Source: a virus
Length of the DNA: 40,141 nt
Direction: 5' to 3' (one strand)
IMG/VR virus record: IMGVR_UViG_3300033412_000035
The translations under genes and the position numbers were made by a program. The notes beneath the pieces are model-generated. The model did not search any database, was not told where the DNA came from, and worked only from the letters and a program-made list of their open reading frames with translations. Of the stretch, positions 1 through 40,141 are shown piece by piece (positions within the stretch are counted from its first letter, which is position 1; each line of letters opens with the position of its first letter).

Positions 1-126
1 TGTCGGTCGCGTTCGAGGCATTGCCGACGAGCGAGAACTCGCGCAGGAGCGGAGTTGCCACGACCCAGTCGTGGGCGTAGTCCATCATCGTCGGCGCGAT
101 GATGGAGCTGTAGTAGACGTCGTTCG
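1..126. repeat. Terminal overlap, left copy (identical to 40016-40141)
   Basis: tgtcggtcgcgttcgaggcattgccgacg...gtagtagacgtcgttcg is found letter for letter at both window ends. Confidence 0.95.
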
Positions 127-7973: not shown

Positions 7974-8936
7974 TTAATGAGCCGCCCACGCCGGCGACGG
8001 GAGCATCGGCTTCTTGCCGGTCTCCTGTTCTATTCGCTTGACCACTACATTCTTGATGCGAACGTAGCATGGCGAGCGGTCTCGATCGTTGAGGTTGCGA
8101 CCCACCAACCAATCTACATACCCAGAGTCAGCAGACAGCGACATCAGCGCCTTCCTGAAAAGCTCCGGGGATATGCGCTTGACCCTGCTTTGCGCCGGAA
8201 CTTCTAGAACCAGGCGACGGTAAAGCCACATCGTTATGGTGAGCGACAGGTTGCCCCAGAGCCGAAAGTTCTCGTGGTCGCGACCCCATGCGGCTAGGGC
8301 TATCTGGAGGAACCCCGCAAGCCTTCGGATGTCCTCCTCGCTGGTCTCGCGAGCGACCGACATTGCACTTTCACCGCCTGCGGTCGGGACCTCCTTGGCA
8401 GATGCCGACCAACAACGCAGGACCGCGCTCATACCAAGCAGCGGCGCGTTGGTTCCTCGTCGAATCTGGTCGTATCCAACAAACGGGCACTCCTGGCGCA
8501 GAAGAGATAGCGCACTGAACGCTCCCTCGAGCCCTCGCAGGATGTCATCCGGTCGCATCCGCACGAGTTGCGAGTTGAGATTTACGTACTCCTCCCCCAT
8601 CGCAGCCATGTCCTCAAAATAATGCACTCGAATATCGACATACCCCTCTTCGCACCCGGAAAGCAGAAACGCCTCGCGCCTGTGCTGACCGTCGAGCAGG
8701 TATATTCGCTTTCCAACGATCCCGAGAGTCATCACCCCGGGGATAACCCCATCATCCTGCTTAATGGCATCCGCCACGGAGCGCACTTTCTCGTTGACCC
8801 GTAATGGACGCTGAAACGTAGGAAGCTCCCACGTCCGCACCAGCTCAGGAGTCACTAGAACCGTATCCACGGTAGTCCTTGTCACTCGTTGCGGCGCGCT
8901 ACTCGGTTTGACGATCTTGAGCTGCGGTATAGACAT
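7974..8936 (-). CDS. DGQHR-motif ParB/Srx-superfamily protein (DndB-like), 320 aa
   Basis: AAGGGAGGA lies 6 nt before the ATG at 8936. The sequence KRIYLLDGQHRREAF contains the DGQHR signature. The gene sits in a marked low-GC stretch. Confidence 0.7.
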   Translation of the reverse strand: MSIPQLKIVKPSSAPQRVTRTTVDTVLVTPELVRTWELPTFQRPLRVNEKVRSVADAIKQDDGVIPGVMTLGIVGKRIYLLDGQHRREAFLLSGCEEGYVDIRVHYFEDMAAMGEEYVNLNSQLVRMRPDDILRGLEGAFSALSLLRQECPFVGYDQIRRGTNAPLLGMSAVLRCWSASAKEVPTAGGESAMSVARETSEEDIRRLAGFLQIALAAWGRDHENFRLWGNLSLTITMWLYRRLVLEVPAQSRVKRISPELFRKALMSLSADSGYVDWLVGRNLNDRDRSPCYVRIKNVVVKRIEQETGKKPMLPSPAWAAH

Positions 8937-8980
8937 CGTTGATCCTCCCTTGTTCGAACCCGTGCCGGCCCCACCTTGGC

Positions 8981-9229
8981 TCATCTCGCCGCCCACCTCT
9001 CGCACGGCCCGAGCTGCATGACGCCCGCGACCTTGCCCCAGGTCTGGGCCCGCTCGAGCGCACGCGTGCACAGGCGATAGGAATCGGCGCAACCCATCAT
9101 CTGGTGCGCCTCGCCGTCCTTCACCAGCGCGGGAAAACACCACAAGTTCGGCGCGTCCTCGTGCACGGCGGTGACCGGCAGGCGCGACGCACACGCGGCC
9201 AGGAGCAGGCCGAGGAGCATGAGCCTCAC
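8981..9229 (-). CDS. Small lipoprotein (82 aa)
   Basis: The GTG at 9229 overlaps the VRR-NUC stop (GTGA). The N-terminus VRLMLLGLLLAAC has an LAAC lipobox, and the mature part has four more Cys. Hidden inside track ORF 8981-9610. Confidence 0.6.
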   Translation of the reverse strand: MRLMLLGLLLAACASRLPVTAVHEDAPNLWCFPALVKDGEAHQMMGCADSYRLCTRALERAQTWGKVAGVMQLGPCERWAAR

Positions 9230-11931: not shown

Positions 11932-12414
11932 ATGCGATTGCGGTGGGCGGCTCTCGTGGCCGCGGTGTCGGTCCAGTCCTGCGCGGCGAGAGGGAGCTAC
12001 CACCCGGCCGAGCGAAGTGCCCGAGCCAGCTCGAGGGCGCTCTACGCAGCTGCTCTGCGCGCGCTCGAGGAGGGCGGCGTCACCGTCGAGACCAAGGACG
12101 TTGACGGCGGCATCCTGGTTACTGCATGGGAGCGGGGGGACGACTTCTCGATCCCGATGCGCTACCGGTGGCGTGTCATCGTGGATGACGGGCGCGTTCG
12201 GGTCCTGTCCGACTGCCAGAACCAGGGCGTGGGCCCGTTCGACTCGAAGGACTGGAAGCCTTGCGACCAGCAGCCGGCCGAGCGAGGAGCCGAGGCCTCC
12301 AGGCTGGCTGACGAGATAGCGGCGACCGCGCGGACTGAGCCGACGGCAGCTCCGCCGGCGAGCGCGACGTCCTCGCAGCAGGCCTCCGTCCCGATAGACG
12401 CCGGCCCTCAGTAG
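11932..12414 (+). CDS. Putative lipoprotein (160 aa), moron-like
   Basis: The N-terminus MRLRWAALVAAVSVQSC is a signal peptide plus a lipobox-like VQSC. It is a lone plus-strand gene between the early-left operon and the repressor gene. Confidence 0.55.
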   Translation: MRLRWAALVAAVSVQSCAARGSYHPAERSARASSRALYAAALRALEEGGVTVETKDVDGGILVTAWERGDDFSIPMRYRWRVIVDDGRVRVLSDCQNQGVGPFDSKDWKPCDQQPAERGAEASRLADEIAATARTEPTAAPPASATSSQQASVPIDAGPQ

Positions 12415-29897: not shown

Positions 29898-31765
29898 CAG
29901 CGCCGCCCCCGGATCCGGTCGGTGTGGCCGCTATAGCTATTGCCCTTGCGGATGGCCTTGTAGATGAGCTGCTGCTGCTCGATGTCGGTGAGGCCGAAGA
30001 AGTCGCGGCCGAGCAAGATGACGGTCTGTTGCGTGCCGCCCTCGCCGCCCCGTCCGCCGCCTCCACCTCCACCGCCGAGGTGATAGCCAGCTCCCCCGCC
30101 GGAGCCGCCGCCGCCCGAGCCCCGGCTCGCGCTCGGGACCGAGCCAGCGCCGAGCGCGCGCGCGAGCAGGCCGAGCGCCACGGCTCCGGCGCTGGCCTCG
30201 GCGGCTGCGGCTCCGTACTGCGCGGCAGCGGCGAAGCCGGCCGGGTTTCCGAAGAGGCCCATGGCGAGAGCGCCAGCCGCCAGGACGCCGTCCTTGATGG
30301 CCTCGCCGGCGAGCTGGGCGGACCCCGAGAGCAGCGCGCTGGCCGCCATCTGCTTGAAGGCCTGGCTTGCCGATCCGGAGCCGGTGATCCAGGTCGCGAA
30401 GGCGCTGCCGGCCGCGTTCTGGATGCCGCGGAAGCCGATGACGATAGCGCTCATCTGCTCGGGCGAGCCGAAGATGGCCTCGAGCGCGTTGTGGACGCCC
30501 TGGAGCTGGAACTGGCGCTGCGCTTCGAGCGCCGCCTTGACGGACTCGTCCATCCCCGAGGTGAGACCGTGCATGTCGCGGAGAAACGCCCGGGTTGACT
30601 CGGCGTCGGCACTGATATCCCGGAAGCCGGACCGCTGCGACCTGTCCTGCTGATAGACGGAGGCGCCTGCCCGGTAGAGGTCGGCCAGGGCGCCCGGGAC
30701 CGCCGCCCCGACGTCGTAGGTGTTCCCGAAGTCGCGGAGGATGTCGCCGGGGGCGTTGGGATCGATGACCATCCCCGGCTTGCCCTTGGCGGAGAGCCGC
30801 TTGGCGAGCGCGACCCAGCCGAGCTGGGCTTTCGTGACGCCGGCGGCGAAGAGCTCCTGCACCGGACGCAGGAGCTGGTTCTCGTCCACGTGGAGCGAAG
30901 AGAGGTCGAAGTTGGTTGCCCCGTCCTGAGAGGGGGCGTTCTCAGCGCCCGGGCCCAGGAGGGGATGCTGCTTTCGGTAGGCCGCCTCGAGCCAGCCCGC
31001 CCTCTGCTCGTTGAAGGGCGTACCGAGATAGCTCACGGCATCGGCGAACGTGCCGACCAGCTTCGCCATGATCTCGAGCAACGGGGCCAGGCTGATGACG
31101 AGCTTTCCGGCCGCGCCCTTGAGGTCGTCGAAGGCGTTGTTCAGGCTCACGCCGGCGCGCCGGAAGTTGTCTCCGGCCATGGCCGTGTTTCCGCCGAGGC
31201 CCTTCCACAGGCCGTCGAGCTGCTTCAAGACCCCCTGCTCGTCGGTCGCCGTGATGCCGAATTCCTTGAGCGCCTTGGTATTGCCCTTGGCGATCGACTC
31301 GGTGAGCGCGTCGATGGTCGGCTTGAGCTCGACACCCATCGTCTTTTGCAGGGCGAGCGCGCCGTGGAGGACCTCTTCCATCTGCTCCTGGTTGAGCTTC
31401 CAGGTCCCGTGCATCGCCTTGCCGGCGAAGGCGAGGAGGTCGTCCTGCTCGACCAGGCCGGCGGTCGCGTCGGTCAGGCGGTCGATGTTGGCGCCGGCCG
31501 CTGCCGAGGCGAGGCGGAGATCCTCGAGGTAGGCGTTGGCGGCGACCTGCGCGCCCTTGTAGAGCGCGACCAGGCCGCCGACCGCCGCGCCGACCTTGAA
31601 CCAGGTCTTGACCTGGTCCTCGAGCGACGCGTTCTGCTTGTTAAGGTCGTCGAGCAGCGCCTTGGCCCGGTCGCGCTCGACGCCCTTCAGGCTCGCGATC
31701 GCGGCCTTGGCCTCCGCGGTCTCGGCGCGGAAGACGGTCAGGACCGTATTTTTGAAATCAGCCAT
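29897..31765 (-). CDS. Tape measure protein
   Basis: 622 aa, Ala/Leu/Gly-rich and helical, with internal hydrophobic stretches and a C-terminal Gly run (GSGGGGSGGGAGYHLGGGGGGGGRGG). It follows the chaperone pair. Confidence 0.7.
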   Translation of the reverse strand: MADFKNTVLTVFRAETAEAKAAIASLKGVERDRAKALLDDLNKQNASLEDQVKTWFKVGAAVGGLVALYKGAQVAANAYLEDLRLASAAAGANIDRLTDATAGLVEQDDLLAFAGKAMHGTWKLNQEQMEEVLHGALALQKTMGVELKPTIDALTESIAKGNTKALKEFGITATDEQGVLKQLDGLWKGLGGNTAMAGDNFRRAGVSLNNAFDDLKGAAGKLVISLAPLLEIMAKLVGTFADAVSYLGTPFNEQRAGWLEAAYRKQHPLLGPGAENAPSQDGATNFDLSSLHVDENQLLRPVQELFAAGVTKAQLGWVALAKRLSAKGKPGMVIDPNAPGDILRDFGNTYDVGAAVPGALADLYRAGASVYQQDRSQRSGFRDISADAESTRAFLRDMHGLTSGMDESVKAALEAQRQFQLQGVHNALEAIFGSPEQMSAIVIGFRGIQNAAGSAFATWITGSGSASQAFKQMAASALLSGSAQLAGEAIKDGVLAAGALAMGLFGNPAGFAAAAQYGAAAAEASAGAVALGLLARALGAGSVPSASRGSGGGGSGGGAGYHLGGGGGGGGRGGEGGTQQTVILLGRDFFGLTDIEQQQLIYKAIRKGNSYSGHTDRIRGRR

Positions 31766-32129
31766 CGCGGTCGCGGTTCATGCGGGCGGCCTGCATCTCG
31801 GAGACGGCGCAGGCTGCCACCTCGACGAGCTCGAGGAGGTGAGGGGAAGGTCGCTCCCGTCCGACGAAATGGTCGAGCTGCCCCTTGTCCCAGTGGAGGT
31901 GCGCCCGGAGCGCTTCCTGGGCGAGGGGGAGCTGGATGAGGTAGCCCGGGCAGGTGTCGGACTCAGGCCGGGGCGCGTCGCGCGGCAGCGGGTACTGACC
32001 GGGGTGCTGGGGTAGTCGAGGCAGGAATCCGCAATTCCATTCCTGATACCGGGCGCACTTCGCGCAGTCGAGGTATTCGGCCGCACCGGCGTGGCCCTTC
32101 GCCATGCCGTCGCGGCGAGCCTCGTACAC
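31758..32129 (-). CDS. Tail assembly chaperone T-like ORF / Cys-rich protein (123 aa)
   Basis: Lies between the G-like chaperone and the tape measure. Its frame is -1 relative to, and open across, the end of 32156-32611. Confidence 0.45.
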   Translation of the reverse strand: MYEARRDGMAKGHAGAAEYLDCAKCARYQEWNCGFLPRLPQHPGQYPLPRDAPRPESDTCPGYLIQLPLAQEALRAHLHWDKGQLDHFVGRERPSPHLLELVEVAACAVSEMQAARMNRDRDG

Positions 32130-32155
32130 GAAGGGTGCGATCCGGATGCCATCGA

Positions 32156-32611
32156 CTACCCCTTCCGAGGGCGCTGGGCGGCCCCTTCCGTCAGCTCGGG
32201 CAGGATGCCGGCGTCTTCGAGGAAGGCCATCTGCTCCTCGATGACCGCAGGCCAGCCGCGCCGCTCCGGGTCGGCCGCCCGCTTGATGTCGAGCTCGCCT
32301 CCGGCTGGGCCCTGGAAGCCGCGCACGCCGACCAGGGTCAGCGCCACCGCGTGGAGGCCGACCTGGAGGAGGCCGCCGTCCGAGCGGGCGAGCTGGTCGC
32401 CGAGCCAGGCGCGCTGCGTTGGCCGGAGCTGGCGGAAGCGCCAGACGGCCGGCTCGCCGCCACCCTCGCGCCTCGGGACCTGGCTGAAGTCGCCGGTCTC
32501 CTTCGCGCGCTCGTAGGCCTCCGCGAAGCCCTCAGCGGTCTGGTCGAGCGCCGGATCACCCCGGCTAATGAACTCGTAGTCACCCACGAGCGTCTGCGTC
32601 TTGAGCTGCAT
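32156..32611 (-). CDS. Tail assembly chaperone (gpG-like, 151 aa)
   Basis: GAGGGAGG precedes the ATG at 32611. Only the last 151 codons of track ORF 32156-33676 are used. The call rests on position. Confidence 0.55.
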   Translation of the reverse strand: MQLKTQTLVGDYEFISRGDPALDQTAEGFAEAYERAKETGDFSQVPRREGGGEPAVWRFRQLRPTQRAWLGDQLARSDGGLLQVGLHAVALTLVGVRGFQGPAGGELDIKRAADPERRGWPAVIEEQMAFLEDAGILPELTEGAAQRPRKG

Positions 32612-32622
32612 CGCGCCTCCCT

Positions 32623-33867
32623 CTACGCCATCGCGAGCCGCACCGGCGAGGCGGTGAGGTCGGTCGTGGTCGTCCCGCCGAGCTGGGCCTCGAAGGAGAC
32701 GCGCTCGCGGTTGTAGCCCTGGTGGTTGACCTGGATCGGAATCGCCTTGCAGATGGCCAGCCGCGGCCAGTACACGCCGAAACCGCGGCCGTCGGCGCAG
32801 GTCACGCTGTAGCAGGCGTGGTAGAAGACGCGCCCGGTGTTCTCGTCGGTGTCCGCGCGGGCGCGCCAGGTGTCGGGCCCGTCGTTGTCCACAGTGATAT
32901 CGAGCGTCGCCATGCCGGCCTTTCGTCGAGCAGCCTGGATAACCTGGCCCTCGGTGTTGCCGCCCGGCCCCATCAGCCCCTCGCCCGACCAGCCGAGGTC
33001 GAAGCCGATTTCGCGGAGCTTGCTCTCGCTCGAGCGGGTCACGGTGCCGACCGCGGCCCAGGCGAACGAGCCGTTGACGACCGGCGACGAGGCGTGGCGC
33101 TGCGGGACGGTCGCGCTCGGGAAGGTGGTCGAGGCGGTCACGACCGAGGAGACGCCGATCTCGATGGTCACCTCCGGGATCTGGCCCATCGACACGCCGC
33201 TGAACTGCGGGGCCGACAGCGGGAAGCAGCCGCGGAGGTCGTACTGGCCGTTCGAGGTGAGGACCCGGAGCCGGAAGGTGGTCGGGACCTCGAACTGGCT
33301 CGGGGTGAGGCAGTACGGGTAGATCATCTTGCCGGCGTAGAGGACGTCCCCGTTGTTCGGGGCGGCCGGCGCGGCCAGGAGGAGCGTGAGGTTGTTCGTC
33401 GAGTGGGCCGAGACCGGCAGGAACTGGCCGCCGACCCGGCCGTCGCCGATGGACCCGCCCCGGACCAGGGCGCCGGCGACGACGCCGCTCGCCGCGGTCG
33501 TGGTCGGGATGGTCGCCGTGCCGCCGGTGAAGGTCGTCCCGGTCGCCAGCGAGGAGGCGACGTTGCCGACGATCATCCCGAGGAAGGTCGCCAGGTCCGA
33601 GCTCGAGACCGCGCCGGCCTGGGTCGCGCCCATTCCGGTCATGCGCATCTTGAGCGTGACCTTCGCGCCGGTCCACGGCATCCGGACGTGCTGCGTCCCC
33701 TCCCAGGGCCGCTGCTTGACGAACGGGACCGGTTCCATGGCCCGCGAGCAGCCGGACAGGTCCACGGCGGTGATGAGGGGGAGCGCGGTGCCGAAGGTCG
33801 TCGAGACCTCGGCGAACGCAGCCTCCGTGTTGTACTGGACGTCTTGGAGTTCAGCGCTGTAGGTCAC
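32623..33867 (-). CDS. Putative major tail (tube) protein (414 aa)
   Basis: Directly upstream of the chaperone pair and tape measure. Positional call only. Confidence 0.45.
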   Translation of the reverse strand: MTYSAELQDVQYNTEAAFAEVSTTFGTALPLITAVDLSGCSRAMEPVPFVKQRPWEGTQHVRMPWTGAKVTLKMRMTGMGATQAGAVSSSDLATFLGMIVGNVASSLATGTTFTGGTATIPTTTAASGVVAGALVRGGSIGDGRVGGQFLPVSAHSTNNLTLLLAAPAAPNNGDVLYAGKMIYPYCLTPSQFEVPTTFRLRVLTSNGQYDLRGCFPLSAPQFSGVSMGQIPEVTIEIGVSSVVTASTTFPSATVPQRHASSPVVNGSFAWAAVGTVTRSSESKLREIGFDLGWSGEGLMGPGGNTEGQVIQAARRKAGMATLDITVDNDGPDTWRARADTDENTGRVFYHACYSVTCADGRGFGVYWPRLAICKAIPIQVNHQGYNRERVSFEAQLGGTTTTDLTASPVRLAMA

Positions 33868-33882
33868 AGTTCTTTCCTTGGC

Positions 33883-36093
33883 TCAGGCGGCCTTGATCTC
33901 GATGGACAGGAGGAGCGAGAGCGCCGACGTGCCCCAGGTCGGGTTGGCGGTCAGGGCATTGACCGCATCCGCCGTCTCGAGGGAGGCATTCGATAGCGTA
34001 ACCATCACGTCGCTGCGCTCCGTGAACCCAGTCGCCGGCGTCACGTCGCTTTGGTTGGCGGCCGTTGCGACCCCATAGGCGTGAACGTTGAAGGCATTCT
34101 CGAATGCCGCCAGGGTATGGCTCGCCCCAAGAGCGGCGGCTGTCACGGTCTTCTTGATCTGCTGGATGGCACCGCTGCCGTTCGTGCCGCTCGGATCGAT
34201 GTCCCGATAGGCCGCCACCGCCCAGCAGCACGACGTATGGCTGGTCGCATGGGTGATGGTCAGGGCGCCCATGATCGGCGAGCCGCCGCGCGCGCGCAGA
34301 AGCGTGATCCTGCGTGTCGGGTTGGTCGCCGGCAGCGTATCGACCTGCACCCAGGTCAGACCGGCGCCGGTCACGGTCGGGGCTTCAGCGGCGGTATTAT
34401 GGTTCGACTCCACCCAGATGAGGACCAGGTCGTTCGCAGTCGGCGTGATCGCCGCGGTCACGAAGGTCGTGCCGTCGGCGGTGGAGCTTCCGTCCGCGAG
34501 CTTCCCAATGATCGTGATTGGCGTCCGCGGCACCGCGGCGACGGTCACCGAGCGAGTCTTGCTGGAGCGCGCGCCGCCGCTATCGGTCGCCGTGAGCGTG
34601 ACGCTGTAGGTCCCATCCGCCGCGTAGGTGTGGTTCGGGTTCTGGGCCGTGTCGGTCCCGCCGTCGCCGAAGTCCCATGCCCAGGAAACGATGGTCCCGT
34701 CCGGGTCGGTGGACAGGTCCGTGCAGGTAATCCCGAGGCCGTGGCTGTCGAGAGAGAAGTCCGCCGTGGGCGGCTCGTTGGCCGGCGGGATGGCCATGTC
34801 GAAGCCGCGGTCGTATTCCAGCTCGAAGACGAGACGGAGAACGAAGCAGGCCGGCCGCTCGTCGATGTTGGTCGCGACCAGACGGGCGGCGTGGAGTCCG
34901 GTCCCCAGCCGATCGTAGTCGGCGTAGCCGCGCTCGCCGATCGCCGCCCGGATATCGTTGATGTCCCAGTCGATGAGGGTCTCGATGCGAACCCCGTAGC
35001 CGTCGATGAGCTTCGGATAGGCCACGAGGACGGTCTCGCTGTGGCGCACGAGATCCGTGTTCTGGTCGAGGTACTTCTCGTCCTGGTAGTCGAGACCGTG
35101 CACAATCTCGAAGCGACGCAGGGGGTCGATGGCCTGGTCGGCCCACGCAACGAATCCGCCGCCGCCCTCGGCGACGGGATCCCAGGGGCGGAACCGACCG
35201 AGCCCTGCGAGCTTCCTCGGCACCACGGCCCGGAGCGTCGTGACCTGCTGAGCGCGGATCCTCTCCCAGGTCGTCCCGCTGTCGGCGTAGCGCGCCGGCA
35301 TGAGGTCGGCCATGCGGTTGCCGAGCGTGATGAAGGAGTCGGCGTCGTAGTGCTGGACGCCGTCACGCAGCGCGAGATCGTCGGTCGGCGCGAGCGCCAC
35401 GCCTGGCACGAACTGGGCGACGCGTCGCTGGCGTTCGCGCGTGATGTCCGGCGACGTGAGGACGTCGGCCGGGCATAGCTCGTTGATGACGAACGGAACC
35501 GGCCCGTACTCCTGCCGGAACCTCGTGATGAACCATGCCAGCGCTCCGTAGTAGCCGCGCGCCACCGAATCGGAGGCGGAGTCGCCCTCGCCGTGAATCC
35601 AGAAGACGCCCGCGACCCGCGAGCCGGCCGGCAGCTCGGCCAGGCGGGCGTCGATGTACGTCGTCATGTACTCCCACAGGGAGTTGTCGGTGTCCGGCTC
35701 CCAGTACTGGTTGAGATTGGTCCCGCTCGTCGCCTCCTTGAGGAGCGCGATGTTGGTCCCGAACCGCTCGAGCAGCCGCCGTCCGGCCGATAGCTCGATA
35801 CCCATGGCGTTCCCGTAGGGGCCGACTTGGCTGCCCCATCCGGTCGAGACCTGGGCCGGGCCGCCCAAGAAATCCGTCGGGCACTCGCGCTCCTGGGCGT
35901 ACAGCAGGTCGTAGGGCGTCGCGTACCAGGCGTTGCCCGCCGACAGGTCCAGAGAGCTCGCGCCGCCGACCGCGTTGGACTGTCCCGCGATCAGGTAGAC
36001 GTCCAGCGGCCTGGTGCCGACGTCGGTCACGCGGTCACCGCCCGTGCAGGCTGCGAGGACAAGCAGCAACAGGAGTAGCGTCCGCGTCCGCAC
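33883..36093 (-). CDS. Signal-peptide/lipobox SASA-type carbohydrate acetylesterase + PKD domain + C-terminal accessory module (736 aa)
   Basis: MRTRTLLLLLLVLAAC (lipobox LAAC). LIAGQSNAVGG and VFWIHGEGDS are SASA/DUF303-type motifs. The PKD signature VSWAWDFGDGGTDTAQNPNHTYAADGTYSVTLTATDSGG is present. The last 201 aa are paralogous to the other two modules. Confidence 0.7.
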   Translation of the reverse strand: MRTRTLLLLLLVLAACTGGDRVTDVGTRPLDVYLIAGQSNAVGGASSLDLSAGNAWYATPYDLLYAQERECPTDFLGGPAQVSTGWGSQVGPYGNAMGIELSAGRRLLERFGTNIALLKEATSGTNLNQYWEPDTDNSLWEYMTTYIDARLAELPAGSRVAGVFWIHGEGDSASDSVARGYYGALAWFITRFRQEYGPVPFVINELCPADVLTSPDITRERQRRVAQFVPGVALAPTDDLALRDGVQHYDADSFITLGNRMADLMPARYADSGTTWERIRAQQVTTLRAVVPRKLAGLGRFRPWDPVAEGGGGFVAWADQAIDPLRRFEIVHGLDYQDEKYLDQNTDLVRHSETVLVAYPKLIDGYGVRIETLIDWDINDIRAAIGERGYADYDRLGTGLHAARLVATNIDERPACFVLRLVFELEYDRGFDMAIPPANEPPTADFSLDSHGLGITCTDLSTDPDGTIVSWAWDFGDGGTDTAQNPNHTYAADGTYSVTLTATDSGGARSSKTRSVTVAAVPRTPITIIGKLADGSSTADGTTFVTAAITPTANDLVLIWVESNHNTAAEAPTVTGAGLTWVQVDTLPATNPTRRITLLRARGGSPIMGALTITHATSHTSCCWAVAAYRDIDPSGTNGSGAIQQIKKTVTAAALGASHTLAAFENAFNVHAYGVATAANQSDVTPATGFTERSDVMVTLSNASLETADAVNALTANPTWGTSALSLLLSIEIKAA

Positions 36094-36094
36094 A

Positions 36095-36817
36095 TCAGCC
36101 CGCCTTCACCTCGACGGCCACCCAGATGGACGCCGAGGAGGTCGTCCAGCTGGGGTCGGCGCTGTTGTCGTTCACGGCATCGGCCGTCTCTAGCCCGCGG
36201 GATGGCAACGTATGCGAGACGTCTCCGCGCTCTTGGAAGCCAGTCGCTGGCGTCGTCGCCTCGCTGGCGGCGTGCGACACGCCGTAGGCGTGGACGTTGT
36301 TGGAATGCTCGAAGGCAGAGAGCGCGATGGTACAGGTCGTGTTCGCCGAGGCCGAGTTGGCCGTGTTTTGCACGATCGCGCCGCTACCGTTGGTTCCGCT
36401 CGTATCGACGTTCCGGTACTCGACCAGCGACCAGTGGCATCCGGTGGTCGCGTCGCCGGCGCCGAAGGCGATAGCGATCGTCCCAGGGCTCGGAGCGCTC
36501 CCCATGGCCCGATAGAGCACGATGAGCGCGCTCGTTCCCGCGGCCTTCCGGTTCACCTCGACCCAGGTCAGGCCGTTGCCGGTGATGCTCGTCGGGCCGC
36601 TCACCGTCGTGGCCGTCTGCACGACCCAGAGCAACTGGAGCGCGTTAGCCGTCGGCGTGACAGACGCCGTCGTGTAGCTGTTCTGATCGACGTTAGACTC
36701 GCCGGTCGTCAGATGCGCTGGAACGATCGTGGCCCGCCCCTGTCGCGCCGATGCGAACGTGGCCAGCCCAACCGGGTCGCCCCGTGACAGCCAGTCATCG
36801 AGTCCGGTCCGGTTCAC
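36095..36817 (-). CDS. Stand-alone copy of the tail accessory module (240 aa)
   Basis: The GTG overlaps the upstream stop (GTGA). Residues about 42-240 align with the C-termini of the Dit-like and esterase proteins (GLTWV, DTSGTNGSGAIVQ, NVHAYGV, VEVKAG). Confidence 0.65.
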   Translation of the reverse strand: MNRTGLDDWLSRGDPVGLATFASARQGRATIVPAHLTTGESNVDQNSYTTASVTPTANALQLLWVVQTATTVSGPTSITGNGLTWVEVNRKAAGTSALIVLYRAMGSAPSPGTIAIAFGAGDATTGCHWSLVEYRNVDTSGTNGSGAIVQNTANSASANTTCTIALSAFEHSNNVHAYGVSHAASEATTPATGFQERGDVSHTLPSRGLETADAVNDNSADPSWTTSSASIWVAVEVKAG

Positions 36818-37113
36818 GCCGGATCGAGCCTCGCGAGGGAGCAGTCGCCGGCCGTGGTCTGCTGGATGAAGTGAACGAATGCGTTCGTGGTCCCCGAGAC
36901 GTCCGGGTTAGCGAGCGGGATAACCATCCCGGCCTTGACGAAGATGTTGTTGGCCGTGTCGGCGGCGGCGGCTCCCCCGGTGACCGTGACCTTGATCCAG
37001 CAGTCCTGTTCGCAGGTGAAGAGATAGGTCTTGCCGTTATCCATCGGGTTCGTGAACTTCTGCGACGTCCCGCTGGTGGTGCCAACCTGCGTTGATGTGA
37101 TGGCGTAGGGCAC
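36814..37113 (-). CDS. Hypothetical small beta-rich protein (99 aa)
   Basis: GGAGGTGA precedes the GTG at 37113. Confidence 0.55.
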   Translation of the reverse strand: MPYAITSTQVGTTSGTSQKFTNPMDNGKTYLFTCEQDCWIKVTVTGGAAAADTANNIFVKAGMVIPLANPDVSGTTNAFVHFIQQTTAGDCSLARLDPA

Positions 37114-37116
37114 AAA

Positions 37117-38058
37117 TCACCTCCGAAAGATGGGAACGGCCGGGATCACGCCCCCGGCGCCGGTTGCATCGCTGGCGATCGGGACCTTCGGACCGGTCCG
37201 GAAGACCTTCCCCATGAACGCCCCGTACTGTTTCTCGGCGTCGTCCAGCGCAGCGGTGTCGCCGCGGCCGGCGAGCAGACTCATGCGCGCCAGGACGCAA
37301 CCGAATCGGAGGAGCGTGGCTCGATTGACCGCGTCCTGGCCGCGCACCCGGTCGTCGTCGAGGTCGATATCGACCAGGTCCCACCGGAACTGCTCGTAGG
37401 CCTCTTCGAGCAGCCGCCGCCCCTCGTCGCCCTGGTGGAGACCCGGCAGGCGCTGCCGATAGCCCGGGTACATCGCCTCGACGTCGGCCGGGAGGAGCGT
37501 ATGCCCCTTCGGGTAGCGGACGAGGTCGAAGTCCGAGTCGTGGACGTACGTGACCCCGCCGACTACGTAGACCCAACGGACGCGGTAGCCGGGGAATGCG
37601 TCCTGGTCGTCGGTAATCTTGCTCTTGTCCGCGACCCAGGTGGACGAGAGGCCGATGGTGAGGCGGCAGCCCTGGAAGGTGGCGCCGGCGGCGTAGTCGT
37701 TGGCCAGCGGGTCGCGTGCGGTCACCTGCGTCGAGGTCACCGCCTCGACCTCGACGATCTCCGTCTGGCCGCCCGCGTTCGTGACGAGGTACTGGCGGCC
37801 GACGACAATCCCGGTCGTCGAGGTGAGCGTCAGGAGCCGCGGGTTGGTCTGGCTGAGGCCGCTTGCGACGCTGACCGTCGTGTTGACCGAGTCGATGGCC
37901 GCGGTTCCGGTGGTTGCGCTCTCCGTCTGGGCGTCGTCCGCGGCGCCCATCTGATAGACGGTCACGCCCGTCACCGAGCCGGCCTGCCCCTCGGTCGCGT
38001 CCCAGATCAGGCTCTGACCGGTGACCCCGAAGATGATGCTCTGCGACCGACGGCTCAT
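37117..38058 (-). CDS. Hypothetical head-tail region protein (313 aa)
   Basis: The ATG at 38058 overlaps the upstream stop (ATGA). Confidence 0.55.
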   Translation of the reverse strand: MSRRSQSIIFGVTGQSLIWDATEGQAGSVTGVTVYQMGAADDAQTESATTGTAAIDSVNTTVSVASGLSQTNPRLLTLTSTTGIVVGRQYLVTNAGGQTEIVEVEAVTSTQVTARDPLANDYAAGATFQGCRLTIGLSSTWVADKSKITDDQDAFPGYRVRWVYVVGGVTYVHDSDFDLVRYPKGHTLLPADVEAMYPGYRQRLPGLHQGDEGRRLLEEAYEQFRWDLVDIDLDDDRVRGQDAVNRATLLRFGCVLARMSLLAGRGDTAALDDAEKQYGAFMGKVFRTGPKVPIASDATGAGGVIPAVPIFRR

Positions 38059-38633
38059 TTCACCCACCACGGGCCAAAGCGCCCGGTCGAGCGGTCGCAG
38101 ATGTCTTCGATCTTCCGCCGAAGGACTCGCTGCTGGTCGTCCAGCCGGAGCCCGGCGTATTCGCCCTTGCCCCGCTGGTAGTCCTGGAACGTCAGGATGA
38201 AGTCACGCGCCAGGTCGCCGCCCTCGTAGTCGATTTCACGGCTGGGCCGGAACATGCTCTTGGGTTTGACGAGCTGCCCGAGACGGTTCCAGGCCGCCTG
38301 CCACTTCGCGTCCATGCGGCGGAGCGGGGTATCGAGCAGACGGTCCTTCTTGGGCGCCTCCTGCGCGGGGATCGGGCGACGCCAGAACTTCGCTCCGGTC
38401 TCCTGGGCCATGTCCGCGGCCCGGTCGTCGCTGCGGAAGCGCTCGTGCGCGGCCGGCGCCTCGTCCTTGACGGGGGCCGGCTTCGCCTCGCGCAGCACGG
38501 CGTCCGCCTGCGCAAGGTCCTGGTTGACGATGCGCTCGAGCGCGCGCGAGTCCACCTCCGCCCCATGGGAGCGGACCGCCTTGGAGTAGTCCTCCATCAG
38601 CGTGCCCTTCACCCAGTGCGGATCGGCGGTCAC
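38055..38633 (-). CDS. Hypothetical protein (192 aa)
   Basis: The GTG at 38633 overlaps the upstream stop (GTGA). The 5' part of track ORF 38055-39203 was rejected. Confidence 0.45.
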   Translation of the reverse strand: MTADPHWVKGTLMEDYSKAVRSHGAEVDSRALERIVNQDLAQADAVLREAKPAPVKDEAPAAHERFRSDDRAADMAQETGAKFWRRPIPAQEAPKKDRLLDTPLRRMDAKWQAAWNRLGQLVKPKSMFRPSREIDYEGGDLARDFILTFQDYQRGKGEYAGLRLDDQQRVLRRKIEDICDRSTGRFGPWWVK

Positions 38634-39163
38634 TTCGCGTCCTTGTCCTTGCCCTTGGTCCCCTGCGTCATCGCGCGCAGGAGCTCCTGGTGATGGCGCT
38701 CGCGCTGCTCGGCGTCCTTCTCGCCCTGCGCCTTGTAGCGCTCGGCTCGCTCGGCCTCGACGACGCCATGACGCCCGCGCCGCACAGCCACCTCGGCATG
38801 GACGTGCCGGCAGCCCTTGCGGATGTCGTAGGAGCCAGGCTCGCAGGGCTTGCCGTCGCGCACCGTGCCGTCCAGCGACTCGCTCATGAGCTGGCCGGAG
38901 AGCATCAGCGCGAGCGGACAGGTATCGACCGGGAACCAGCCCTGGCCGAGCTTCACGGCCATGATCTGGTTGGCATAGTTGTCCGGGACCACGATGGAGG
39001 CCGCGGTGACGATCGGGACCCGGCACATGTTCCCCTGCGGATCGACCATGTGGCGATGCCGCATCCCCGGGTACTTCTCGACCCGCTTCTCGCCGTCCAC
39101 AAAGATCGTCCGCCGCGGCGGCGACCAGGTGGAGGCATCCATGATGTTGCTCTTGACGTTCAT
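38630..39163 (-). CDS. Hypothetical protein (177 aa)
   Basis: The ATG at 39163 (MNVKSNIMDAS) has GGAAGGGG upstream. The ATG at 39178 has no RBS and abuts the hairpin. Confidence 0.55.
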   Translation of the reverse strand: MNVKSNIMDASTWSPPRRTIFVDGEKRVEKYPGMRHRHMVDPQGNMCRVPIVTAASIVVPDNYANQIMAVKLGQGWFPVDTCPLALMLSGQLMSESLDGTVRDGKPCEPGSYDIRKGCRHVHAEVAVRRGRHGVVEAERAERYKAQGEKDAEQRERHHQELLRAMTQGTKGKDKDAK

Positions 39164-39180
39164 CTCGGCCCCTTCCATGA

Positions 39181-39212
39181 GGCGGGGAGGCCCGGACTGG
39201 CACCTCCCCGCC
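39181..39212 (-). terminator. GC-rich stem-loop immediately after the capsid gene (attenuator or mRNA-stabiliser candidate)
   Basis: GGCGGGGAGG-N12-CCTCCCCGCC: a perfect 10-bp stem starting 10 nt past the capsid stop, with no U tract. Confidence 0.4.
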
Positions 39213-39221
39213 GTGCTTCGA

Positions 39222-40141
39222 TCAGGCGTCGGTCACGATCTTGGTGTGGGCGGCGTCGAAGATTTCGCCCACGCCAGCGCGCATCGACGCGACGTACTCG
39301 GTGGCGCGCAGCGAGGCGTCCCGCTGGGTCTCGAGGCGGAACATGCGCTTCCAGACGATGCCCAGAGCCGCCATCGGGTCGTTGCCCGGGCCCGAGTGGA
39401 CCAGGCAGTCACCGACCACGTCGGCGCCCGCGTTGGCGGTGTCGGTCAGGCCCGCCGACCAGACCGGGTAGCCGCGGAAGAACAGCACCAGGCCATTGGT
39501 CATGCCGTTGTTCGGGCCAATGTTGGCGCCGAGGATCCGGTCGGTCGCCGTGGCATAGGTCGCGACCGAGGTGCTGGTCGCGGTGAGCGCGCCTTCGAGG
39601 TCGTTGACCTGCTGCTCGTCGAGCACGTAGGTCACGCCGTCCGGCGCGCGCACGCCGCGGGTGCGGATGCCGACCTGGGCCGCGAGCATCTGCGCGACGG
39701 TCAGATCCACGCCCGTGCTGCCGACACTGTTGGAGGCGTTCGCGAAGGTCGCCGCGACGTCGTCCTCGAGCGCGGTCATCAGGATCCGGGTCGAGTTGCC
39801 CAGCACGAGGCGGAGCCAGTCGATCCCGTCGATCGAATCCTCGTAGACGTTGTCGGTGATGGTCACCATGACCCCGTACTCCGAGGCGGTGAGCGTCACC
39901 TTGTTGGTCGAGAGCTGGGTGTTGCCGAGGTCGGTCGCCTCCGTGGCGTTGAACTCGGTGTCCACGCCGGTACCGCCGTCGCCGACGGTGCCCATGTTCG
40001 AGGCGAGCGACCAGATGTCGGTCGCGTTCGAGGCATTGCCGACGAGCGAGAACTCGCGCAGGAGCGGAGTTGCCACGACCCAGTCGTGGGCGTAGTCCAT
40101 CATCGTCGGCGCGATGATGGAGCTGTAGTAGACGTCGTTCG
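39222..40141 (-). CDS. Major capsid protein (HK97-fold type), 5' end continues at 154-1
   Basis: 315 aa in total. It follows the scaffold gene. The Thr/Ala/Gly-rich composition and the layout (...TLTASEYGVMVTITDN...) are typical of phage major capsid proteins. Call rests on position and general resemblance. Confidence 0.7.
   Translation of the reverse strand, partial: NDVYYSSIIAPTMMDYAHDWVVATPLLREFSLVGNASNATDIWSLASNMGTVGDGGTGVDTEFNATEATDLGNTQLSTNKVTLTASEYGVMVTITDNVYEDSIDGIDWLRLVLGNSTRILMTALEDDVAATFANASNSVGSTGVDLTVAQMLAAQVGIRTRGVRAPDGVTYVLDEQQVNDLEGALTATSTSVATYATATDRILGANIGPNNGMTNGLVLFFRGYPVWSAGLTDTANAGADVVGDCLVHSGPGNDPMAALGIVWKRMFRLETQRDASLRATEYVASMRAGVGEIFDAAHTKIVTDA
40016..40141. repeat. 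Terminal overlap, right copy (identical to 1-126)
   Basis: Same 126 nt as the window start. It lies inside the capsid gene, so it looks like an assembly or circularisation overlap rather than a packaging repeat. Confidence 0.95.

What the first reader, a model, noticed from the sequence alone, without database searches (positions are those of the whole stretch)
33883..36093. Textbook lipoprotein signal on an esterase-PKD protein encoded inside the virion operon
**Seen directly.**
- The ORF starts VRTRTLLLLLLVLAAC: a basic n-region, a Leu-rich core and an L-A-A-C lipobox.
- GQSNAVGG and WIHGEGDS follow. This is the GQSN ... W-x-x-GE-x-D pair characteristic of SASA/DUF303 sialate-type O-acetylesterases.
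- Next come a canonical PKD repeat (WDFGDG...NPxHTY...GxYxVxLTxTD) and then the shared C-terminal module.
- The gene is translationally packed between head-tail genes and the tail tube gene, which is an unusual place for a depolymerase.

**Inference.** Virion proteins assemble in the cytoplasm, so an SPII signal implies one of three things: the enzyme is exported by the infected cell or lysogen (receptor modification, superinfection exclusion, capsule or O-antigen deacetylation); translation starts at the internal GTG at 36030, giving a cytoplasmic form; or both isoforms exist.
Basis: partly seen in the sequence, partly recalled or inferred. Interest (0 to 1): 0.65.

Follow-up and report, generated by a model that had tools for sequence, protein, structure and literature searches.

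The report
Lipoprotein-signal esterase fused to tail terminator
One gene of a 40-kb temperate soil phage joins a textbook export-and-lipid-anchor signal to a sugar-deacetylating enzyme and to the phage's own tail-capping protein, which must work inside the cell, so the gene probably makes two differently located products or carries a leftover signal.

Summary
ORF 33883..36093(-), 736 aa, begins MRTRTLLLLLLVLAAC and carries a SASA esterase, a PKD domain and a C-terminal module shared with the upstream gene.

**The signal is not chance.**
- It is the only strict lipobox hit among 1,492 open start positions in the window.
- At least 17 homologous SASA esterases (45-57% identity) carry a lipoprotein signal with the Cys at the aligned position. 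One of them occupies the same gene slot in a related phage.

- Residues ~270-437 are the phage's tail terminator. The AF2 model matches only terminators (T5 p142, lambda gpU).
- Stand-alone 156-160-aa homologues lie directly upstream of the 412-414-aa major tail gene in relatives.
- The slot in front of the terminator is a swappable glycan-enzyme cassette: empty, beta-helix lyase, lipoprotein SASA, or SASA fused without a signal.

**Interpretation.** The gene is an enzyme-decorated tail terminator, a neck-collar-like display, that still carries an export signal. A terminator must act in the cytoplasm, so a short form from GTG 36030 is required. That start has its own Shine-Dalgarno-like motif and a stop/start relay. 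Whether the long lipoprotein form is also made cannot be settled in silico.

Kind: a new variant of known kinds. Interest is moderate to high.

The parts
33883..36093 (-). Whole ORF, 736 aa: signal + SASA esterase + tail-terminator domain + PKD + beta-sandwich module
36046..36093 (-). Residues 1-16, lipoprotein-type (SPII) signal MRTRTLLLLLLVLAAC. It has an n-region with R2 and R4, an h-region L6-L13, the lipobox L-A-A-C, and Cys16
   Evidence: It is the only strict lipobox hit among 1,492 starts. The Cys aligns with the lipobox Cys of 14 of the 19 aligned homologues
36028..36030 (-). In-frame GTG (codon 22), candidate start of a cytoplasmic isoform. It is preceded by GGGCGGTGA, and it is the nearest start upstream of the first conserved strand VYLIAGQSN
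   Evidence: anti-SD duplex -10.1 kcal/mol, against -10.2 for GTG 36093. Homologues without a signal start 11 residues before GQSN
36027..36095 (-). 22-codon out-of-frame mini-ORF (MCGRGRYSCCCLSSQPARAVTA*). Its ATG shares the A of the upstream stop (TGATG), and its TGA overlaps GTG 36030 (GTGA). It is a possible termination-reinitiation relay to the short isoform
   Evidence: Read directly. My estimate is that such an arrangement arises by chance about 1 time in 20-25, so this is weak evidence
35299..36006 (-). SASA/DUF303 (SGNH-type) carbohydrate O-acetylesterase domain, residues 30-265
   Evidence: Pfam PF03629, E 6e-21. Profile hit to PDB 2apj, E 1.4e-16. S39, D171 and H248 are invariant in the family
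34783..35280 (-). Tail-terminator domain, residues ~272-437
   Evidence: AF2 model pLDDT 75, pTM 0.74. The top Foldseek PDB hits are all tail terminators: T5 p142, lambda gpU, T1, Milano, Mu, pyocin R2. Stand-alone homologues: L020 157 aa (E 1e-9), L025 156 aa (hhalign 97.9%, E 4e-13), L028 160 aa (50% identity)
34540..34773 (-). PKD (Ig-like) domain, residues 441-518
   Evidence: Pfam PKD_4 E 4e-20 and PKD E 1e-14. PDB ColH PKD domains
33889..34503 (-). C-terminal beta-sandwich module, residues 531-735, a paralogue of the upstream gene
   Evidence: 44% identity, E 5e-47. The model of the paralogue has pLDDT 94.7. Its fold matches phage proteins, including mycobacteriophage minor tail proteins
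36095..36817 (-). Upstream 240-aa gene: a stand-alone copy of the module with two extra N-terminal helices. It is conserved at this position in relatives
32623..33867 (-). Downstream 414-aa gene, the presumed major tail protein (tube or sheath not resolved). It is always directly downstream of the terminator gene or domain
   Evidence: Synteny in L001, L020, L028 and L029. No Pfam, PHROG or phage-database hit

Best explanation
**Shown**
- The gene is the phage's tail-terminator gene grown into a mosaic: lipoprotein signal, SASA O-acetylesterase, terminator domain, PKD domain, and a minor-tail-type beta-sandwich module.
- In this phage lineage the basic order is module gene, terminator gene, major tail gene.
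- The space before the terminator is a cassette slot for enzymes that act on surface polysaccharide.

**Inferred**
- Here a SASA esterase of an exported-lipoprotein family was captured and fused in frame to the terminator.
- The esterase, PKD and module would then be displayed around the neck as a ring, six copies if the terminator forms its usual hexamer. There they would bind and deacetylate the host's surface glycan during adsorption.
- The lipoprotein signal is a real, inherited feature of that esterase family.
- A terminator has to cap the tail tube and dock the head in the cytoplasm. The virion form must therefore be made without a working signal, most likely from GTG 36030.
- Initiation at GTG 36093 would give a second, Sec-exported, lipid-anchored form. 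It would deacetylate the receptor glycan on the infected cell envelope and so protect progeny from readsorbing to debris or block superinfection.
- My commitment is that both forms are made. The fixed mix of starts in TGATGTG (ATG of the relay mini-ORF and GTG of the long form) may set their ratio.
For: **The signal is real and inherited**
- Strict lipobox hit is unique among 1,492 starts.
- At least 17 homologues at 45-57% identity carry lipoprotein signals, with the Cys aligned.
- Some of them sit in cellular polysaccharide loci.
- In related phage contig L025 a lipobox-SASA gene (MRRYLVIVLMLAAAC) sits in the same slot, and its ATG overlaps the upstream stop.
- In phage-like contig L013 the signal start has a strong SD.

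**Terminator identity**
- Fold search returns only tail terminators at the top.
- Stand-alone homologues lie directly upstream of the 412-414-aa gene in L020, L025, L028 and L029.
- No separate terminator-sized gene lies between the esterase and the 414-aa gene, here or in L001-L007.

**Cassette slot:** empty in L028, beta-helix enzymes in L020 and L029, SASA in the others.

**Virion association**
- There are Rosetta-stone fusions of module, esterase and terminator (P0006; this gene).
- The module fold matches annotated phage minor tail proteins.

**Start sites**
- GTG 36093 and GTG 36030 have equal SD-like support, -10.2 and -10.1 kcal/mol.
- GTG 36030 lies where signal-less homologues begin.
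- GTG 36030 overlaps the stop of a mini-ORF coupled to the upstream gene.

**Terminator biology** (hexamer ring; needed to stop tube growth and join the head; some carry extra domains): PMC11784142.
Against: - Nothing here shows which start codons are used.
- All four fused relatives lack a signal, so the signal could be a recent, unselected carry-over.
- An internal start with an SD-like motif after the lipobox also occurs in a cellular homologue (L008). That feature is therefore not specific.
- The relay arrangement has a chance probability of roughly 0.04-0.05.
- No close relative carries the same 63 nt, so selection on it cannot be measured.
- The terminator call rests on a model built from 5 sequences (pLDDT 75) and on TM-scores of 0.5-0.66. 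No Pfam or PHROG terminator family hits the protein.
- The host, and therefore its envelope type, is unknown.
- Esterase substrate and activity are untested.
Confidence: 0.45

Rival explanations
1. Only the short form is made. Translation starts at GTG 36030, possibly through the mini-ORF relay. The 63 nt upstream are an untranslated or non-productive remnant of the lipoprotein esterase gene that was captured and fused. The product is purely a virion protein: an esterase-decorated terminator.
For: - The terminator must be cytoplasmic.
- All other fused forms lack the signal and begin about 11 residues before GQSN.
- GTG 36030 has a good SD-like motif at 5-nt spacing.
- ATG 36095, not GTG 36093, is the better-placed start behind the upstream stop, and it leads into the relay.
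Against: - The signal is intact in every canonical feature, with no stop or frameshift and GC3 of 0.81. That is unexpected for drifting sequence unless the capture was very recent.
- GTG 36093 sits 1 nt behind the upstream stop, as coupled starts do throughout this operon.
- Related phages do translate lipobox-SASA genes from the coupled start (L025, L013).
Confidence: 0.3
2. Only the long form is made. The whole 736-aa protein is exported and lipid-anchored as a cell-envelope esterase that modifies the receptor or excludes superinfection. The terminator-like domain is a passenger, and another gene supplies terminator function.
For: - Textbook signal at the coupled start.
- The homologous esterases are exported lipoproteins.
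- PKD and beta-sandwich modules suit a surface enzyme.
- Phage lipoproteins encoded beside tail genes are known: T5 Llp and the Cor family (PMC9586334).
Against: - No other terminator-sized gene lies next to the major tail gene.
- The domain keeps the residues that are invariant with stand-alone terminators.
- In L025 and L020 the terminator homologue has no signal.
- Loss of the terminator is lethal in model phages (PMC11784142).
Confidence: 0.1
3. The long form is made but the hydrophobic N-terminus does not act as an export signal. Fast folding or assembly could keep the protein in the cytoplasm. Alternatively, the genome is a defective recombinant that does not yield virions.
For: The gene is known only from one metagenomic genome, so viability is not demonstrated.
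Against: - An eight-residue Leu/Val core with two Arg before it is a strong Sec/SRP signal by general knowledge.
- The genome assembles as a complete 40,015-bp circle with intact late genes.
Confidence: 0.1
4. The signal-like peptide is a chance upstream extension of the ORF in a GC-rich genome, where stop codons are rare.
For: Long spurious ORFs abound in this 68% GC window. The looser PROSITE-type rule gives 10 other, mostly out-of-frame, hits.
Against: The strict rule hits only this start. The homologous family carries the same signal at the same place.
Confidence: 0.03

Closest known systems
Tail terminator proteins (lambda gpU, T5 p142, SPP1 gp17)
   Same: The fold of residues ~270-437 matches. 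The gene lies directly upstream of the major tail gene. Stand-alone homologues in relatives have the usual size, 156-160 aa.
   Different: There is no sequence-family hit. Here it is the middle of a 736-aa protein, with an enzyme in front and PKD plus a beta-sandwich behind. PMC11784142 notes that terminators can carry extra domains, but I found no report of one carrying an esterase or a signal peptide.
Neck passage structure / collar-whisker decorations of lactococcal 936 and P335 phages
   Same: Both are variable carbohydrate-binding, beta-helix or esterase-like modules displayed at the head-tail junction as accessory host-binding devices (PMC6669499). That matches the cassette behaviour seen here.
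   Different: The NPS is a separate protein that forms its own ring through a BppU-like N-terminal domain. Here the display scaffold is the terminator itself. No homology was tested or seen.
Virion-borne O-antigen/capsule deacetylases of phages (e.g. the SGNH esterase tailspike gp63.1 of coliphage G7C; from my own knowledge)
   Same: A serine esterase is carried on the particle and modifies the receptor glycan instead of cutting it.
   Different: Those enzymes are tailspikes at the baseplate and have no signal peptide. This one would sit at the neck and belongs to the SASA (PF03629) branch.
Phage superinfection-exclusion lipoproteins Llp (T5) and Cor (T1, phi80)
   Same: They are phage-encoded SPII lipoproteins encoded next to tail or receptor-binding genes, and they switch off the phage's own receptor (PMC9586334). 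This is the closest functional analogue for the long isoform.
   Different: They are small (about 60-80 aa), non-enzymatic binders of FhuA. They are unrelated in sequence and are not fused to a structural protein.
Cellular SASA lipoprotein esterases (P0122-P0138, uncharacterised metagenomic proteins)
   Same: 45-57% identity over the esterase domain, with the same signal and lipobox position.
   Different: They are 273-316 aa and stop after the esterase domain. Where context is known they lie in polysaccharide-synthesis neighbourhoods, not in phage operons.

Membership tests
SASA / DUF303 carbohydrate esterases (Pfam PF03629) | Match to the family HMM above the curated cut-off | tested here: met
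   75.4 bits against a cut-off of 24.8; residues 30-265 cover profile positions 2-224 of 226
SASA / DUF303 carbohydrate esterases (Pfam PF03629) | Catalytic motifs: Ser in GQSN, the W-x-Q/H-G-x-x-D block, and the C-terminal His | tested here: met
   S39, D171 and H248 are invariant in 19 aligned homologues. They align with GQSN, QGESD and His of solved 2apj and 1zmb
SASA / DUF303 carbohydrate esterases (Pfam PF03629) | O-acetylesterase activity and substrate | not testable with these tools
   Needs an enzyme assay on pNP-acetate and on host polysaccharide
Bacterial lipoproteins (signal peptidase II substrates) | Basic n-region, uncharged hydrophobic core, lipobox [LVI][ASTVI][GAS]C with Cys at position 15-35 (PROSITE PS51257 logic) | tested here: met
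   R2, R4; L6-L13; L-A-A-C16. Matches my implementations of both the PROSITE-type rule and the strict rule
Bacterial lipoproteins (signal peptidase II substrates) | Signal conserved at the same position in homologues | tested here: met
   14 of 19 aligned homologues, plus L025, have the Cys in the same column. The 4 phage fusion forms do not
Bacterial lipoproteins (signal peptidase II substrates) | Translation from this start, export, lipidation and cleavage | not testable with these tools
   SignalP and LipoP are not available here. Needs reporter fusions, globomycin and lipid labelling
Tail terminator proteins (gpU / p142 type) | Terminator fold | tested here: met
   Foldseek top 30 hits are almost all terminators; E down to 1e-4, probability 1.00, TM up to 0.66. 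The model has moderate confidence
Tail terminator proteins (gpU / p142 type) | Gene directly upstream of the major tail gene, with stand-alone homologues of terminator size | tested here: met
   L020 157 aa, L025 156 aa, L028 160 aa, L029 157 aa
Tail terminator proteins (gpU / p142 type) | Sequence-profile membership of a described terminator family | tested here: not met
   No Pfam or PHROG hit for this region or for the stand-alone homologues. A PDB sequence profile found nothing
Tail terminator proteins (gpU / p142 type) | Hexameric ring that caps the tube and docks the head | not testable with these tools
   Needs cryo-EM or a multimer prediction
PKD domain | Match to the family HMM above the cut-off | tested here: met
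   PKD_4 72 bits (cut-off 27) and PKD 54.6 bits (cut-off 23.5)
Neck passage structure (lactococcal NPS) | BppU-like N-terminal ring domain followed by a coiled coil | not tested
   Treated only as a functional analogue. Nothing in the domain map suggests these parts
Llp/Cor superinfection-exclusion lipoproteins | Small non-enzymatic lipoprotein that binds a TonB-dependent receptor | tested here: not met
   The protein is 736 aa and multi-domain with an enzyme. It is an analogue only

The most novel reading that the evidence does not exclude
One phage gene gives two products with opposite cellular locations, through a choice among overlapping start codons (TGATGTG) and a 22-codon relay mini-ORF.
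- One product is a lipid-anchored, exported receptor-destroying esterase.
- The other is a cytoplasmic esterase-bearing tail terminator that forms an enzymatic collar on the virion.

The gene would also be a caught-in-the-act intermediate. It would sit between a host-derived exported lipoprotein gene (the state seen in L025) and a signal-less virion decoration (the state seen in L001-L007).
Probability: 0.35. Interest if true: 0.8.

Novelty: new variant of a known kind. Interest (0 to 1): 0.6.

Why it matters
- **A new way to mount an enzyme on a phage.** The tail terminator serves as scaffold for a swappable glycan-enzyme cassette at the neck. This widens where host-range determinants should be looked for in phage genomes, beyond the baseplate.
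- **A testable route of gene capture.** If both isoforms exist, the same catalytic domain would serve adsorption (on the particle) and receptor destruction or exclusion (on the infected cell). It would offer a concrete test case for how phages turn captured host surface enzymes into virion parts.
- **A large unnamed phage domain.** The shared module belongs to a very large family with no Pfam entry: 3,052 cluster representatives at E <= 0.001. It is worth naming and characterising.

Tried and rejected
- **Family and phage-database searches.** PHROGs gave nothing for the esterase protein and only weak hits for its neighbours. tblastn of the terminase, the 414-aa protein and the esterase against 50,697 phage records found no relatives; the only hits were two to the PKD domain.
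- **Genome representatives.** These gave only 26-29% identical SASA proteins, from Pirellulaceae, Phycisphaerae and others.
- **Viral and metagenome scans.** IMG/VR scans with the terminator and the 414-aa alignments found nothing.
- **Host identification failed.** There are no tRNAs and no named cluster members. The only hint is similar GC content (66-71%) in the phage and cellular-homologue contigs.
- **Phylogeny.** A neighbour-joining tree of the esterase domain is star-like. It does not say whether the signal was kept or regained.
- **Shine-Dalgarno energies** do not separate the two GTG starts.
- **Conserved dual start rejected.** L025 also has an SD-like motif plus GTG after the lipobox. 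So does cellular homologue L008, because Glu-rich linkers mimic GGAGG. I therefore do not count this as evidence.
- **Start just before the terminator domain (M261/M265).** No SD-like motif is present.
- **Moron-like independent expression.** No promoter-like site was found in 32000..40141, and the terminator-like hits are at background level.
- **Module fold.** The PDB search gave only weak jelly-roll resemblances, TM <= 0.33. The L025 238-aa protein in the module position is unrelated to the module.
Full report
**1. The observation**

The ORF is as described: 33883..36093 on the minus strand, 736 aa, GTG start, N-terminus MRTRTLLLLLLVLAACTGGDRV.
- The upstream gene stops at TGA 36097-36095, so the two genes are 1 nt apart. 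The next gene starts 15 nt downstream.
- GTG 36030 is in frame, at codon 22.
- Pfam finds SASA (residues 30-265, 75.4 bits, cut-off 24.8) and PKD (441-518).
- A profile of the family hits the solved SASA/DUF303 esterases 2apj (E 1.4e-16) and 1zmb, with the GQSN, QGxxD and His columns aligned. S39, D171 and H248 are invariant in 19 homologues.
- The C-terminal module (531-735) is 44% identical to residues 35-239 of the upstream 240-aa protein, E 5e-47.

**2. The genome**

- GC3-based gene finding shows one long late operon on the minus strand.
- Integrase, RecT and an Amidase_2 endolysin lie on the other strand.
- An exact 126-nt repeat at the two ends shows a circular 40,015-bp genome.
- This is therefore a complete temperate phage. 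It has no relative among 50,697 deposited phage genomes.

**3. Is the signal chance?**

I applied a strict rule: K/R near the start, an 11-residue uncharged stretch, and [LVI][ASTVI][GAS]C.
- It hits only this start among 1,492 start codons followed by at least 40 open codons in six frames. A looser PROSITE-type rule gives 11 hits.
- A search with residues 1-437 found 27 relatives. The 17 short ones (252-316 aa, 44-57% identity) all begin with a hydrophobic leader ending in a lipobox Cys. Examples are MTKYLFIFLLALAAC|T, MKDRFAVALIAALAGC and MRWILVLALAGC.
- That Cys aligns with C16 of the window protein.
- Two of these relatives lie in cellular polysaccharide neighbourhoods, next to epimerases, UDP-glucose dehydrogenase, sulfatase, glycosyltransferases and a polysaccharide deacetylase.
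- One (P0131) lies in a phage-like contig next to a phage peptidase family. Its signal start has a strong SD.

The signal is therefore an inherited family trait.

**4.

Three full-length homologues come from syntenic phage contigs with this order: capsid 290, 75, 191, 186, 310, 95, 235 (module), esterase 408, then 411, 174, 82, tape measure 619, 479, 1150.
- These esterases have no signal. They start about 11 residues before GQSN and overlap the upstream stop by 4 nt.
- Like the window protein, they carry about 150 extra residues after the SASA domain.

In other relatives this extra part is a separate gene directly upstream of the 412-414-aa gene:

| Contig | Size | Support |
|---|---|---|
| L020 | 157 aa | BLASTP E 1e-9 |
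| L025 | 156 aa | hhalign 97.9%, E 4e-13 |
| L028 | 160 aa | 50% identity |
| L029 | 157 aa | aligned |

An AlphaFold2 model of residues 266-440 has pLDDT 75 and pTM 0.74. In the PDB it matches tail terminators and almost nothing else: T5 p142, lambda gpU, T1, Milano, Mu, pyocin R2 and others. E-values go down to 1e-4, probability is 1.00, and TM reaches 0.66. Fold, size and gene position agree that this segment is the tail terminator. No Pfam or PHROG terminator profile hits it, so it is a sequence-divergent member.

**5. The slot**

Comparing the lineages gives a simple picture. The base order is module gene, terminator gene, major tail gene, as in L028. Between module and terminator sits an optional enzyme:

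| Contig(s) | Content of the slot |
|---|---|
| L028 | empty |
| L020 | 327-aa pectate-lyase-fold protein |
| L029 | 341-aa beta-helix protein |
| L025 | separate SASA with a lipoprotein signal; its ATG overlaps the upstream TGA |
| L001-L007 | SASA fused to the terminator, no signal |
| L005 | module-SASA-terminator triple fusion |
| window | signal-SASA-terminator-PKD-module |

An enzyme in front of the tail gene is thus a property of the lineage, not an oddity of this genome. The closest described analogue is the neck passage structure of lactococcal 936 phages. Its variable ends are carbohydrate-binding modules, beta-helices or esterase-related domains (PMC6669499).

**6. The module**

- The 240-aa protein models with pLDDT 94.7 as a beta-sandwich with two N-terminal helices.
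- It has no convincing solved relative.
- It matches many predicted phage proteins, including mycobacteriophage 'minor tail proteins' and Sinorhizobium and Rhizobium phage proteins. TM is 0.6-0.8 and E goes down to 5e-20.
- The sequence family is very large and has no Pfam entry: 3,052 cluster representatives at E <= 0.001. Members occur alone, in tandem, or inside proteins of up to about 2,300 aa.
- The repeated fusions of module, esterase and terminator argue that they sit together on the particle.

**7. The paradox and how I resolve it**

Terminators form a ring on the proximal end of the tube, stop its growth and provide the docking face for the head. Mutants give polytails or tails that cannot join heads (PMC11784142). 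That happens in the cytoplasm. An eight-residue Leu/Val core behind two arginines should send the protein through Sec, by general knowledge. So a form without a working signal must exist.
- The only in-frame start between the signal and the first conserved strand is GTG 36030.
- It is preceded by GGGCGGTGA. The anti-SD duplex energy is -10.1 kcal/mol, equal to the -10.2 of GTG 36093.
- It lies where the signal-less homologues begin.
- Reading closely, the sequence behind the upstream gene is TGATGTG. The ATG shares its A with the stop and opens a 22-codon out-of-frame mini-ORF. That mini-ORF's TGA overlaps GTG 36030 as GTGA.
- This would let ribosomes that choose the ATG be handed on to the short-form start, while ribosomes that choose GTG 36093 make the lipoprotein.
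- Given the peptide sequence, I estimate the arrangement arises by chance about 1 time in 20-25. It is a lead, not proof.

**8. What remains open**

I cannot tell whether the long form is made.

In favour:
- The signal is flawless.
- It sits at the coupled position.
- Related phages clearly translate lipobox-SASA genes (L025, L013).

Against:
- Every other fused form has lost the signal.
- No diverged copy of the 63 nt exists to test for selection.
- SD-like motifs after the lipobox also occur in a cellular homologue.

My probabilities are:

| Outcome | Probability |
|---|---|
| Two isoforms | about 0.45 |
| Short form only | 0.30 |
| Long form only | 0.10 |
| Non-functional signal or defective genome | 0.10 |
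| Chance | 0.03 |

A long form would be a late-expressed, lipid-anchored esterase. The best analogy is the receptor-silencing lipoproteins Llp and Cor, encoded beside tail genes (PMC9586334), but acting by enzymatic removal of acetyl groups.

No promoter-like site supports separate expression in lysogens. The host is unknown.

**9. Verdict**

- It is a new variant of known kinds (decorated neck proteins, virion esterases, phage lipoproteins). The unusual point is that the signal sits on a protein that must also assemble in the cytoplasm.

Noticed in passing
window 1-126 and 40016-40141: An exact 126-nt direct repeat at the two ends of the window. The sequence is a circularly closed assembly of a 40,015-bp phage genome.
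   Followed up: yes
window 11932-12414 (+): A second candidate lipoprotein: a 160-aa ORF with coding-like GC3 (0.84), starting MRLRWAALVAAVSVQSC|AARG. It lies in the non-structural half of the genome and has no Pfam hit. It could be a superinfection-exclusion protein or an o-spanin-like protein.
   Followed up: partly
window 36095-36817 (-) and 33889-34503 (-): The shared module belongs to a very large protein family with no Pfam entry: 3,052 cluster representatives at E <= 0.001, found alone, in tandem, or inside proteins of up to about 2,300 aa. Its predicted beta-sandwich matches mycobacteriophage 'minor tail proteins' but no solved structure.
   Followed up: partly
L020:871-1854, L029:1270-2295, L025:774-1544, L028:7717-8199: In related phages the position in front of the terminator gene is a cassette slot. 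It is empty in L028, holds pectate-lyase or beta-helix proteins in L020 and L029, and holds a separate lipoprotein-signal SASA esterase in L025.
   Followed up: yes
L005:3857-5722 (P0006): A relative in which the module, the esterase and the terminator are one 621-aa protein with the module at the N-terminus. The separate 95-aa and 235-aa genes are missing.
   Followed up: partly
window 36069 (-): The public gene call for this protein (P0001, 728 aa) starts at the TTG of codon 9, inside the hydrophobic core. That start has no Shine-Dalgarno-like support (-3.5 kcal/mol) and looks like a gene-caller artefact.
   Followed up: yes
window 7974-9194 (-), within 8001-9000: GC content dips locally to 58% in a 68% GC genome, over a 406-aa ORF with no Pfam hit. 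This may be a recently acquired accessory gene.
   Followed up: no
window 32156-33867 (-) and 31758-32152 (-): It is not resolved whether this is a siphophage or a myophage. The series 414 aa, ~150 aa, ~123 aa, tape measure fits two readings. One is tube plus G/GT chaperones. The other is sheath, tube and chaperone, as in P2. The terminator model matches terminators of both kinds.
   Followed up: no
L008:10001-10855 and L011:10001-10897: The cellular lipoprotein homologues of the esterase sit beside sugar-nucleotide epimerases, UDP-glucose dehydrogenase, a sulfatase, glycosyltransferases, a polysaccharide deacetylase and a 969-aa PKD protein. These contigs have the same GC range as the phages (67-70%). 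This hints that the enzyme family acts on an acetylated exopolysaccharide of the host clade.
   Followed up: partly
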